Shown: piece by piece, positions 10,772-27,985 of the stretch
How the letters are laid out: each line of letters starts with the position of its first letter
Numbering within the stretch: position 1 is the first letter of the stretch
Notes under the pieces: model-generated
What the model was told of the DNA's origin: nothing
What the model saw: the letters and a program-made list of their open reading frames with translations, nothing else
The model's database searches: none
IMG/VR virus record: IMGVR_UViG_3300026302_000005
Span: 209,301 to 273,300 of that record
DNA length: 64,000 nucleotides
Source of the DNA: a virus
Taxonomy: Duplodnaviria; Heunggongvirae; Uroviricota; Caudoviricetes
Strand: one strand, 5' to 3'
Position numbers and translations under genes: made by a program

Positions 10772-11624
10772 ACATCATTTCTTGTTCATTCGGGAACAAT
10801 GGCCCTTCCCACACATTGAATTCAGAGAACAGGTTTGTGCGAATTCGTTCTCTTGTCTTCTCAGTGCTTTTGATGATGTCGCCGTTGATGATCCATTCCA
10901 TTTCATCGATTTGCTCACATCGATGACGGCCAGCCAGACCATCATCGTATTCTCTGGAATATTTGGATGCAATGATCCACCGCAACCTGAATGGATCGGT
11001 GTTGTTGCTTGCACCTTCGCGATTCCAGTTTGCGAACATCCTCTCGGCATGAAATCCCGGCACATCCCGAAAATCCGACAATACGGGTGTTTCTGATGTC
11101 GTTCGGTATATCCGGAAACCGTTCTGACACAACATCGAATGGGGTGCTGGATACTTCGAGGGATCACCCAGGGTAAACCAATAGGCTTCCAGTTCGTCCC
11201 AGGTCTCTACCAGATAGTCTTCCCCCACATCTTCACCGGTGGTCGGGATAGTGCTCTGATAGCGACTGTTACGCAGCACAATACTCGCGGGCCCGGTAGC
11301 AGCATGACGCAGCCCGTTCTGATAGTGGGTCATCTGGGTGGTGAAGGCTTTGTTGTCCCGCACTATCAGGGCTGGCCAGTCATTCCGATGAAGGCGATCC
11401 CCCATGACCCAATACTGGGCCATCCTGGTGTCACCTTCAATGACCTGGAATGAGATCGGAGAATCCTGGTATTCGGGATAGGCCAGATAGAAACACTGAT
11501 CGTTGGCTCGGAGACCCTGTATCTTTTGAACGTCAGCCAGAGTAAAGCGAATGACGGGACAATCTCGACCCTGGTAGACACCGGCCCAATTCAATGCATG
11601 GGCTAGTTCGTCCAATTCCATCAT
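10743..11624 (-). CDS. Hypothetical protein with LHRxxxPA repeats
   Basis: GDRLHRNDWPA, GLRHAATGPAS; ATGA-coupled start. Confidence 0.7.
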   Translation of the reverse strand: MMELDELAHALNWAGVYQGRDCPVIRFTLADVQKIQGLRANDQCFYLAYPEYQDSPISFQVIEGDTRMAQYWVMGDRLHRNDWPALIVRDNKAFTTQMTHYQNGLRHAATGPASIVLRNSRYQSTIPTTGEDVGEDYLVETWDELEAYWFTLGDPSKYPAPHSMLCQNGFRIYRTTSETPVLSDFRDVPGFHAERMFANWNREGASNNTDPFRLRWIIASKYSREYDDGLAGRHRCEQIDEMEWIINGDIIKSTEKTRERIRTNLFSEFNVWEGPLFPNEQEMMFAFSEVSRD

Positions 11625-12265
11625 AGCTGAAACCACCACTCAATGGTGTGTTCTTTTGGGGGAACCAGAACCCATAGATCATCAATCTGAGGATGAATCC
11701 ACACAGACATATTGTTCTCGGCAGCATACCGATCCACTGCTGCTTTGACACCATCCCATGTATAGTCATCACCCATCACTAGACCACCCGGACGCAACAC
11801 ACGAAAGCCGTTGGTTACATCCCGATACACATAAGGCTCATCATGATTGCCATCGACAAAGATAATGTCAAATGTGCGAGCCCCGTTGTTCTCTGCAAAG
11901 AATTCATCGCTGGTCTGGAGCCGGTGTTCGACGTTCGGGTAGATTGCAGTCGTGGCCTTTCGGGTATCCTCGATCAGGCTGGTCCACATGTTCCATGCAT
12001 CAGGATCACCTTTCATCCACTGGAACACCTTGAGATTTCGCTCTTTCAATTCAGTCAGGGTGTATCCCCTACTGGAATCTACGCTGACCACAGTGCCGTT
12101 TGGACAATTCGCAGCCCATGCCACGAGGGATCGACCGGCCCATGATCCAATCTCCAGGATCATTGGATGAGCCGATGTTTCAGATGCCCATTGTGACAAT
12201 GTGCCAAACAATGTCAGCTTGCTGATGTTTGTCCAACCTGGGACACTTAGATCGTAATGAATCAT
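11621..12265 (-). CDS. Class I SAM-dependent methyltransferase (Methyltransf_24-like)
   Basis: LEIGSWAGRS; FDIIFVDGNH; LRPGGLVMGDDY. Confidence 0.88.
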   Translation of the reverse strand: MIHYDLSVPGWTNISKLTLFGTLSQWASETSAHPMILEIGSWAGRSLVAWAANCPNGTVVSVDSSRGYTLTELKERNLKVFQWMKGDPDAWNMWTSLIEDTRKATTAIYPNVEHRLQTSDEFFAENNGARTFDIIFVDGNHDEPYVYRDVTNGFRVLRPGGLVMGDDYTWDGVKAAVDRYAAENNMSVWIHPQIDDLWVLVPPKEHTIEWWFQL

Positions 12266-14366: not shown

Positions 14367-14885
14367 TTAACTCCAGGGGTTGTTGAACCTTTCTTCGAGG
14401 ACTTTGATGAAGTTGTCAAGCCCGAAAAGGCACACGAATTGCCCCCACCGGGGTCCGCTCGGAGAACGAACCACCAATTCATACAGATACAGAAAGAACT
14501 CTCTGATTGCTGCTTTGTCTTCTCCGAACGTAGCCTTGGCAGCTTCGTAGAACTCGAACTGCACAGCCTCTTCATCCAGTGGTGCTGGTAGGGCCAGGAG
14601 GCGATCCAGGAGCCCTCCCAGGCCCACCAGAAGCTGCTGCACCCGCTGGTGGCTCACGACCTGTTCCTGAGCCCCACGAGGGGCATACCAGGCTTCCATC
14701 ACAGCATCGTATTCCGCCATGTCTTTCTGGTATTGCTGCATGACCCCATCCGAGGCGTTATCCCCGGGCTTACGGGGCTCCTGCATGGGTGGCCGCTCGG
14801 CCATCTGCCAATACAGAAAAGCCGTGATCGTGCCCAGACGAGCCTGTAGTGGGCCGACATCGATGATTCGGTCAGCATCGGTCAT
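14367..14885 (-). CDS. Stand-alone class I lysyl-tRNA synthetase anticodon-binding-domain-like protein
   Basis: C-terminus IREFFLYLYELVVRSPSGPRWGQFVCLFG matches the class I LysRS pattern LRxWFxxLYEVLLGxxxGPRFGxFIALYG; no HIGH/KMSKS domain. Confidence 0.75.
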   Translation of the reverse strand: MTDADRIIDVGPLQARLGTITAFLYWQMAERPPMQEPRKPGDNASDGVMQQYQKDMAEYDAVMEAWYAPRGAQEQVVSHQRVQQLLVGLGGLLDRLLALPAPLDEEAVQFEFYEAAKATFGEDKAAIREFFLYLYELVVRSPSGPRWGQFVCLFGLDNFIKVLEERFNNPWS

Positions 14886-15137: not shown

Positions 15138-15692
15138 TTATGCTCTTTGATCTTCTGTGTGGGCGGTGCCGCCGAAATTCATCCGGTTGTAGTATTCCCG
15201 GATATAGGCTTCATCGTGGCTGTCGCTTTCGAAACTGGTCCACTTGATCATCAGAAACATACGGCGTTCCAGCACGTTCAGTTCCGAATAGAGCAGACCA
15301 AACACCGGGAAGGCATCTTCCAGATACTGCTGGAGAGCCCACATCCGCTGCTGGCCATCGACCAGGATATTCCGGGTCCGGGGATTACCTTTGCCATAGG
15401 TGGGATCGATGTTGATCGTGTATGTGCCAACCGGCATTCCCATCCACAACGATTCGATGAACCGGATCATCTGGGTCTGCGACCATACCAGAGGACGTTG
15501 CCACTCCGGGATCACATAGCCCATGATGGTGCGTAGCCTGAGCGGGTTCATGTAGTCGAGTTCGTCGGTGTTGGCGTCATCCACCGCCGCCTTATAGGCG
15601 GTCCAATTGCAGATGGGAGCACTGAGCATGCTGGCATACTCTTTACCCATGTTGAACCCACGGGGCATACGGCTGATCATCTGTTCGGTCAT
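15138..15692 (-). CDS. DUF262 (ParB/Srx-like, GmrS-type) domain protein
   Basis: IPEWQRPLVW, FIESLWMGMPVG, LVDGQQR. Confidence 0.85.
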   Translation of the reverse strand: MTEQMISRMPRGFNMGKEYASMLSAPICNWTAYKAAVDDANTDELDYMNPLRLRTIMGYVIPEWQRPLVWSQTQMIRFIESLWMGMPVGTYTINIDPTYGKGNPRTRNILVDGQQRMWALQQYLEDAFPVFGLLYSELNVLERRMFLMIKWTSFESDSHDEAYIREYYNRMNFGGTAHTEDQRA

Positions 15693-18423: not shown

Positions 18424-18506
18424 TGGAGAACCGGTGGGGAGTCGAACCCCTTGACCATGGATTAAAAGCCCATTGCCAGTCCACACCGACTTTCGTCTAC
18501 CGGTCC
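18424..18506 (-). tRNA. Atypical tRNA-Lys(UUU)
   Basis: Acceptor GGACCGG/CCGGTTC, T-loop TTCGACT, enlarged D region, 8-nt anticodon loop CTTTTAAT. Confidence 0.65.
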
Positions 18507-18596: not shown

Positions 18597-18671
18597 TGGT
18601 GAACCGGGAGAATTTTGAAATCTCGACCTTGGGTTTAAGAGACCCCTGCTCTGCCTCTGAGCTACCGGTCC
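18597..18671 (-). tRNA. tRNA-Lys(CUU)
   Basis: Loop CT-CTT-AA, CCA; T-arm GAGAT-TTCAAAA-TTCTC is slightly unusual. Confidence 0.85.
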
Positions 18672-27235: not shown

Positions 27236-27985
27236 TCAGCCCCCGTTGGTAAAGCGTTGATAGACGATCCTGTCCACACCCACGGCGAGTTCGAACACCT
27301 TGAGGTTCTTCTCGACCGCACCCTTGTTGGTCTTGAACGAATAGGTGCCGGGGAAGTCCGTCCGGATACTGGCGGATGCGATTTCCATCCACCGTTGTGC
27401 CATTTCGTCATACACCTCGATGTCCAGGGTGGACTCGGCATAGGCCGGAATGCGATCCGATTCGATGACACGCACCTGGATGGCCGCACAAAGATTTTGG
27501 ATCACCGGAGCCACACGTTCCAACACCACTGACCGATAGTCGTTCTTGGTATCCTCAGTGTAGATGCACTGGAATTCCTGTTGATAGAATTCCTTGAGCC
27601 GCATGAACTTCGTGGGCTGTTCCTGTTCACGCCGGAACGACTTGCCGACTTGCCAGAAACAGACGGGTGGTCTCCATGCGGATTGGACGTCAAATACGGC
27701 CCGTGCGTAGGCGTAGGTGCTCGGAGTGGTCTCCGGTCGCAGAACCAGCGGAACAGCCGTCTCCGAGCCGCTCTGTGCGTATACGTCGGCATCAGTGTAT
27801 TCCTGGTTGATGATCGAACGCGGCACCAGAACGGTGCCCTCAATCTGCTCGAATGCCCAGGCTTGGTTCTGGCTCCATAGCGTGTTCTGAACACGGCGAG
27901 CAATCTGTTCCACAGCATGTTGCCGGAACTGAATGTGGGCACCGGTCCAGAAGACCAGGCCATTGATGTTGTGAATGTTATGCAT
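27236..27985 (-). CDS. Class II aminoacyl-tRNA synthetase catalytic core (alpha2 GlyRS-like), no anticodon-binding domain
   Basis: LRPET; motif 2 WQVGKSFRRE..RLKEFYQQEFQ; WMEIAS; motif 3 AVGVDR. Confidence 0.85.
   Translation of the reverse strand: MHNIHNINGLVFWTGAHIQFRQHAVEQIARRVQNTLWSQNQAWAFEQIEGTVLVPRSIINQEYTDADVYAQSGSETAVPLVLRPETTPSTYAYARAVFDVQSAWRPPVCFWQVGKSFRREQEQPTKFMRLKEFYQQEFQCIYTEDTKNDYRSVVLERVAPVIQNLCAAIQVRVIESDRIPAYAESTLDIEVYDEMAQRWMEIASASIRTDFPGTYSFKTNKGAVEKNLKVFELAVGVDRIVYQRFTNGG

What the first reader, a model, noticed from the sequence alone, without database searches (positions are those of the whole stretch)
14367..14885. Free-standing LysRS-I anticodon-binding domain
The C-terminal approx. 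65 aa match the helical anticodon-binding cage of class I LysRS, the LysRS type used by many Alphaproteobacteria. It is fused to an unrelated approx. 100-aa N-terminus and has no catalytic domain. A domain that covers the tRNA-Lys anticodon without charging it could shield tRNA-Lys from anticodon nucleases (PrrC targets tRNA-Lys), modulate host LysRS, or help recognise the odd phage tRNA-Lys(UUU) encoded 4 kb away. The function is inference.
Basis: partly seen in the sequence, partly recalled or inferred. Interest (0 to 1): 0.7.

Follow-up and report, generated by a model that had tools for sequence, protein, structure and literature searches.

The report
Phage stand-alone lysine-tRNA anticodon cap
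A jumbo phage encodes only the anticodon-reading end of a class I lysyl-tRNA synthetase, with no enzyme attached, in a large undescribed phage family that often travels with an oddly folded lysine tRNA, so it probably caps lysine tRNAs during infection, though binding has not been shown.

Summary
Confirmed. The 172-aa ORF (14367-14885, minus strand, 376-kb phage with 48 tRNAs) carries the alpha-helix cage of class I LysRS in residues about 78-170 (profile E 8e-8 to PDB 1IRX; HHalign 99.5%; top fold match Z 8.4). There is no catalytic domain here or elsewhere in the 93%-complete genome. It belongs to about 140 stand-alone 110-190-aa clusters; every context read was phage-like. Cage residues Y113, K117, F131, Y135, G144 and R146 are 98-100% conserved, as in full enzymes, and dN/dS is about 0.13. 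The N-terminus is a family-specific conserved helix plus a variable insert. New here: the odd tRNA-Lys(UUU) 3.5 kb away belongs to a covarying 8/4-fold tRNA-Lys class. It is present in 4/4 near-complete carriers and 0/13 unmatched control phages. It also occurs without the cage in cultured Caulobacter phages, so the link may only reflect a shared host type. Best reading: a non-catalytic tRNA-Lys anticodon cap (about 0.75), most likely protecting or stabilising tRNA-Lys (about 0.4 overall). Binding and function are inferred. The scan noted this family before on another phage (e1-5404246). I found no paper on it.

The parts
14367..14885 (-). 172-aa stand-alone LysRS-I cage protein (P0001)
   Evidence: dN/dS about 0.13 against L003
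14376..14654 (-). alpha-helix cage, residues 78-170, homologous to the LysRS-I anticodon-binding domain (1IRX 438-523)
14448..14495 (-). core anticodon-reading motif F131-x3-Y135-x8-G144-P-R146 (aligned to 1IRX F487, Y491, G500, P501, R502)
   Evidence: alignment; conservation
14796..14837 (-). family-specific N-terminal helix, residues 17-30 (consensus about L-A-A-Y-L-Y-L); no detectable homology to LysRS-I
14688..14789 (-). lineage-specific polyproline-plus-helix insert, residues 33-66; absent from most family members
18424..18506 (-). non-canonical 8/4-fold tRNA-Lys(UUU): 8-bp acceptor with G2.U71-type pair, 4-bp T stem, 6-bp D-like hairpin, extra 3-bp helix between an 8-nt linker and the variable loop, 7-nt anticodon loop, U discriminator; missed by ARAGORN
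18597..18671 (-). 7/5 tRNA-Lys(CUU) with a G2.U71 pair (a LysRS-I identity element in B. burgdorferi, per PMC9976931)

Best explanation
The protein is a catalysis-free tRNA-Lys anticodon cap. It derives from the C-terminal cage of a class I LysRS and is stabilised as a free domain by its own N-terminal helix. SHOWN: the cage fold; the anticodon-reading residues conserved as strictly as in real LysRS-I; purifying selection; one copy per genome; no LysRS catalytic half in the near-complete carriers; frequent placement in tRNA clusters and near tRNA-repair or modification genes. INFERRED: it binds the U35/U36 anticodon loop of tRNA-Lys (about 0.75), in hosts that charge lysine with LysRS-I, such as Alphaproteobacteria. 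It would reversibly cover that loop on uncharged host and phage tRNA-Lys, including the phage's 8/4-fold tRNA-Lys. This would protect or stabilise the lysine tRNA pool against anticodon nucleases until the synthetase and EF-Tu displace it.
For: Homology and fold. Conservation in 143 short members against 30 full enzymes: Y113 98/67%, K117 99/93%, F131 100/97%, Y135 99/97%, G144 99/97%, R146 99/97%; the role of F487/Y491/R502 in reading U35/U36 is from my memory of Levengood et al. 2007, which I could not retrieve. dN/dS 0.13 against L003, 0.22 against L314, 0.13 for L004 against L314. No PF01921 over the cut-off in G000, G001, G003, G012, G019; no class II LysRS core in G000, G001, G003, G019. 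All four near-complete carriers have 29-48 tRNAs including tRNA-Lys. The gene lies directly behind a tRNA-Lys gene in L166/L168 (44 nt) and L194 (29 nt). Neighbours in several loci include RNA ligase, PNK-like kinase, SpoU methylase, Thg1, PTH2 and RNase T. tRNA-Lys is the target of PrrC and PARIS, and phage tRNA-Lys rescues infection (PMC11555353).
Against: There are no binding or protection data. An isolated cage may bind weakly, and the whole protein is acidic (median pI 4.8), though the cage charge equals that of full enzymes (net -3). A cap on the anticodon would also compete with LysRS, so protection and inhibition cannot be told apart from sequence. No partner gene is constant, and in several loci the nearest tRNA is not Lys. 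Neighbour recurrence partly reflects synteny among related phages.
Confidence: 0.4

Rival explanations
1. Dedicated partner of non-canonical phage tRNA-Lys. The cage binds the 8/4-fold tRNA-Lys as a folding or charging helper, or forms an RNP with it, rather than acting on the general pool.
For: The 8/4 tRNA-Lys is in 4/4 near-complete carriers and in L004, L017, L031, L194 and L315 (L315 was a prospective test). It is absent from 0/13 large control phages, and 0/39 phage records with an ordinary tRNA-Lys carry the cage. The carriers' proteins are only 30-50% identical. Phages with a full-length LysRS-I also often have the RNA (4/7).
Against: L003 and L314, close relatives, lack the RNA in the same tRNA cluster, and L316 lacks it within 10 kb. 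Six near-complete records with the RNA have neither the cage nor LysRS-I, including CcrColossus, CcrPW and CcrBL10. The controls were not matched for host, so a shared LysRS-I host explains the overlap.
Confidence: 0.2
2. Sequestering inhibitor or tuner of lysine decoding. The cage competes with host LysRS for tRNA-Lys, lowers charged host tRNA-Lys, and so shifts translation or triggers the phage's codon-sensing tRNA leader.
For: It has the same binding surface as the enzyme but no catalysis. An earlier scan note reports a Lys/Arg/Ile-codon leader ahead of this tRNA operon (e1-5436214, not tested here).
Against: The phage's own tRNA-Lys keep U35/U36 and would be sequestered too. The phage uses both AAA and AAG heavily (378 and 601 in long ORFs).
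Confidence: 0.17
3. Trans-acting anticodon module that lends tRNA-Lys specificity to another enzyme, such as a synthetase core lacking its own anticodon domain, or a tRNA modification or repair enzyme, by docking through the N-terminal helix.
For: A class II aaRS core without an anticodon domain lies at 27236-27985, with a homolog in G001. SpoU is adjacent or near in L013, L014 and L199. The N-terminal helix is conserved and family-specific.
Against: That core is missing from G003 and G019. No neighbour is constant. There is no LysRS-I catalytic half in the carriers.
Confidence: 0.13
4. Exapted fold or decaying fragment of a phage LysRS-I that no longer binds tRNA.
For: Huge phages do carry full LysRS-I genes (11 records), a plausible source. 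The protein is acidic.
Against: The best-conserved positions are the same ones conserved in real LysRS-I cages. dN/dS is about 0.13. There are about 140 divergent clusters with their own conserved N-terminal helix.
Confidence: 0.1

Closest known systems
C-terminal alpha-helix cage of class I lysyl-tRNA synthetase (P. horikoshii, PDB 1IRX residues 438-523; Pfam PF01921 enzymes, PF19269 domain)
   Same: Fold (Z 8.4, rmsd 2.6, 86 residues), and the F-x3-Y-x8-GPR motif with the upstream aromatic-x3-K motif. The closest sequences are alphaproteobacterial and huge-phage LysRS-I.
   Different: No Rossmann catalytic domain, SC-fold or helix bundle. A new N-terminal helix and a conserved C-terminal tail (F159, R166, P170). 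Encoded alone in phages.
GluRS anticodon-binding cage (e.g. PDB 6BRL, 2O5R)
   Same: Same fold (Z 5.5-7.7).
   Different: Far weaker sequence match (E 0.029 against 7.9e-8 for LysRS-I); the motifs are of the LysRS-I type.
Free-standing aaRS accessory domains (Trbp111/CsaA OB folds, YbaK/ProX editing domains; from memory)
   Same: A synthetase domain released as its own gene to act on tRNA in trans.
   Different: Different folds and jobs (elbow binding, editing). None is an anticodon cage and none is a phage family, as far as I know.
8/4 tRNAs of Mukai et al. (PMC5389517)
   Same: 8-bp acceptor and 4-bp T stem; 8/4 tRNA-Ser and tRNA-His were reported in alphaproteobacterial phages.
   Different: The RNA here has Lys anticodons (22 of 23; one Gly), a short variable loop, an 8-nt linker forming an extra helix, and a 6-bp D-like hairpin. 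That paper found a Lys-anticodon 8/4 allo-tRNA only once.

Membership tests
Class I LysRS enzyme | Rossmann catalytic domain with HIGH/KMSKS (PF01921) | tested here: not met
   172-aa ORF without it; no PF01921 match in the genome
Class I LysRS enzyme | C-terminal alpha-helix cage fold | tested here: met
Class I LysRS enzyme | Anticodon-reading residues equivalent to F487, Y491, R502 | tested here: met
   F131, Y135, R146 by alignment, 99-100% conserved; their role is from memory
Class I LysRS enzyme | SC-fold and helix-bundle domains between the catalytic domain and the cage | tested here: not met
   the N-terminus does not align to any part of LysRS-I
Class I LysRS enzyme | Binds and lysylates tRNA-Lys | not testable with these tools
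   needs biochemistry
Pfam PF19269 Anticodon_2 | Score above the curated cut-off | tested here: inconclusive
   the query has no hit; 13 of 143 members match at E<=0.1, best 2e-6
Split LysRS-I (two-gene enzyme) | Catalytic half encoded in the same genome | tested here: not met
   none over the cut-off in G000, G001, G003, G019 (93-100% complete); the weak G001 hit is a different class I synthetase fragment
8/4-fold tRNA | 8-bp acceptor stem plus 4-bp T stem | tested here: met
   100% of cells paired in both helices over 23 sequences; pair 8 is GC 13, UA 8, AU 2 (alignment fitted to the model)
allo-tRNA (Mukai et al.) | tRNA-Sec/Ser-like long variable arm (from memory) | tested here: not met
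   variable region of 6-7 nt
8/4-fold tRNA | Aminoacylated and active in translation | not testable with these tools
   needs experiment

The most novel reading that the evidence does not exclude
Phages of LysRS-I hosts deploy a new anti-defence or translation module. A free anticodon cage protein caps tRNA-Lys against anticodon nucleases and works together with a structurally new 8/4-fold tRNA-Lys, so that lysine decoding survives host tRNA destruction.
Probability: 0.2. Interest if true: 0.85.

Novelty: new variant of a known kind. Interest (0 to 1): 0.6.

Why it matters
Phages are known to beat tRNA-cleaving defences by supplying replacement tRNAs or repair enzymes. A protein cap on the anticodon would be a third route. 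The protein is small and the predicted binding residues are known, so it can be tested directly. The associated 8/4-fold tRNA-Lys is unannotated in cultured Caulobacter and Brevundimonas jumbo phages, so its charging and function can be tested now in a standard laboratory host.

Tried and rejected
Foldseek on the whole model was not significant. The N-terminal helix as a relic of the LysRS-I SC-fold looked tempting by eye but was rejected: HHalign, PSSM and HMM scores were no better than reversed decoys. A link to amber (CUA) tRNA was rejected as obligatory: it is present in G000, G019, L011, L013, L014 and L316 but absent from the complete G001 and G003. No cultured phage in INPHARED matched four family members. 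A search for longer, fused forms found only two full LysRS-I and is weak. The cage tree is poorly resolved at 88 columns; one origin is not rejected (p-AU 0.27) and not shown; P0102, P0148 and P0154 proved to be LysRS fragments. Homodimer prediction gave no answer. No RNA holder was listed, and the laid contigs were uninformative. Literature searches found no paper on this family; the library lacks most subscription journals, and Levengood 2007 was not retrievable.

Full report
Observation. The ORF at 14367-14885 (minus strand) encodes 172 aa. It is translationally coupled to the upstream 81-aa gene and followed 3 nt later by the next gene. The window lies in a 376-kb virus record, 93% complete, with 48 ARAGORN tRNA calls. 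Alone, the protein has no relevant Pfam, PHROG or PDB match. Ten close homologs of 39-98% identity are conserved mostly in the C-terminal half, and three of them sit in the same gene order near an Arg/Lys/Ile tRNA cluster. dN/dS is about 0.13 against L003, so this is a gene under selection.

Identity of the domain. A profile of the 11 sequences found 311 clusters at E<=0.001 among 1.84 billion representatives. Of the best 150, about 140 are proteins of 110-190 aa, and a few are full-length class I LysRS matched at their C-termini. A profile of the 143 short proteins hits P. horikoshii LysRS-I (1IRX 440-519) at E 7.9e-8 and a GluRS at only 0.029. HHalign to full LysRS-I gives 99.5% over residues 78-170. 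The AF2 model (pLDDT 95) has 1IRX as best match of 48,161 chains (Z 8.4), followed by GluRS cages. That Z is modest for a helical domain, so the sequence evidence carries most of the weight. By the alignment, F131, Y135 and R146 correspond to F487, Y491 and R502, which from memory (Levengood et al. 2007; not retrievable here) read U35/U36. These positions, with Y113, K117 and G144, are 98-100% conserved in the short proteins, as high as or higher than in 30 full enzymes.

It is stand-alone. There is no LysRS-I catalytic domain in this genome or in the three other near-complete carriers, and no class II LysRS core. Each has one copy of the cage gene. The N-terminus is a conserved family helix (17-30) followed by a variable acidic linker; here the linker holds a 34-residue polyproline-plus-helix insert. 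It is not detectably derived from LysRS-I. A separate set of huge phages carries full-length LysRS-I. The cage tree cannot settle origin: one clade is not rejected, p-AU 0.27.

Context. Every context I read looked like a phage accessory region. Of 33 non-redundant loci, many of them short, 12 have tRNAs within the fetched DNA, and in two the gene directly follows a tRNA-Lys. RNA ligase, PNK-like kinase, SpoU, Thg1, PTH2 and RNase T recur, but no neighbour is constant. No cultured phage carries the gene.

The odd tRNA. The tRNA-Lys(UUU) at 18424-18506 is missed by ARAGORN and scores 34 bits in Rfam. It has a normal 7-nt loop. It belongs to a class with an 8-bp acceptor, a 4-bp T stem, a 6-bp D-like hairpin and an extra 3-bp helix between an 8-nt linker and the variable loop. 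Over 23 sequences, 94% of cells pair and 24 of 26 pairs show compensatory change; slid controls pair at 39-49% (the alignment was fitted to the model). With a covariance model it is found in 4/4 near-complete cage carriers, 4/7 near-complete phages with full LysRS-I, and 0/13 control phages. It is also in carrier loci L004, L017, L031, L194 and L315, but not in L003, L314 or L316. Conversely, 0/39 records with an ordinary tRNA-Lys carry the cage. Six near-complete records have the RNA without the cage or LysRS-I. Three are the Caulobacter phages CcrColossus, CcrPW and CcrBL10; the RNA is also in seven Brevundimonas phages, and it is unannotated in all of these cultured phages. So the RNA does not need the protein, and both may simply mark phages of LysRS-I-using Alphaproteobacteria. 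The controls were not host-matched and the patterns were seeded from carriers. The G2.U71 pair in both Lys tRNAs of this phage fits a LysRS-I host (PMC9976931). Mukai et al. reported 8/4 tRNA-Ser and tRNA-His in alphaproteobacterial phages, and a Lys-anticodon 8/4 allo-tRNA only once (PMC5389517).

Mechanism. Shown: fold, residue conservation, selection, absence of a catalytic half, and tRNA-linked context. Inferred: binding to the tRNA-Lys anticodon loop (about 0.75). Given binding, I rank protection or stabilisation of the tRNA-Lys pool first (0.4), because tRNA-Lys is the known target of PrrC and PARIS and phage tRNA-Lys counters them (PMC11555353). Next come a dedicated partner of the 8/4 RNA (0.2), sequestration (0.17), a trans specificity module for another enzyme (0.13; the minimal class II core at 27236-27985 is in only 2 of 4 carriers), and no tRNA binding (0.1).

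Novelty and verdict. It works like the LysRS-I anticodon domain but is not a LysRS. I found no publication on the family. The scan noted the same family on another phage (e1-5404246). I file it as a new variant of a known kind, interest 0.6.

Noticed in passing
window 18424-18506 (-); L297:2357-2437; L301:3014-3096: The 8/4-fold tRNA-Lys class with an extra linker/variable-loop helix is unannotated in cultured Caulobacter (CcrColossus, CcrPW, CcrBL10, BL57) and Brevundimonas jumbo phages; it deserves its own study.
   Followed up: yes
L296:8010-8092: The same 8/4 architecture with a Gly (UCC) anticodon, so the fold is not strictly limited to Lys.
   Followed up: partly
L210:4329-4412; L212:8253-8335: A second atypical tRNA-Lys(UUU) type with an 11-12-nt unpaired variable loop. 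Its pattern matched only two IMG/VR records, both cage carriers.
   Followed up: partly
G000:C1:301027-301103 (outside the window); L011:2776; L013:16809; L014:11518; L212:4523; L316:7550: Amber-anticodon (CUA) tRNAs; the G000 copy has a tRNA-Lys-like anticodon arm, although TAG still ends many long ORFs in G000 (30 of 186).
   Followed up: partly
window 18597-18671 (-); L003:4440-4514; L004:4514-4588; L314:5486-5560: A 7/5 tRNA-Lys lineage with an altered T arm. The anticodon is CUU here and UUU in relatives, whose loops end in A37-C38, a possible nuclease-evasion change.
   Followed up: no
L015, L019, L022, L023, L027, L030, L034, L203: Huge phages (about 280-580 kb) encoding full-length class I LysRS.
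   Followed up: partly
window 27236-27985 (-): 249-aa class II aaRS core (PF00587) without an anticodon domain; a 40% identical homolog is in G001.
   Followed up: partly
window 14688-14789 (-): A natural insert resembling the designed PPalpha miniprotein (6GWX; 38% identity, rmsd 1.0 over 34 residues).
   Followed up: partly
window 15138-15692 (-) and 11621-12265 (-): GmrSD_N/DUF262-like protein and Methyltransf_24 protein, kept syntenic with the cage gene in L003, L004 and L314.
   Followed up: no
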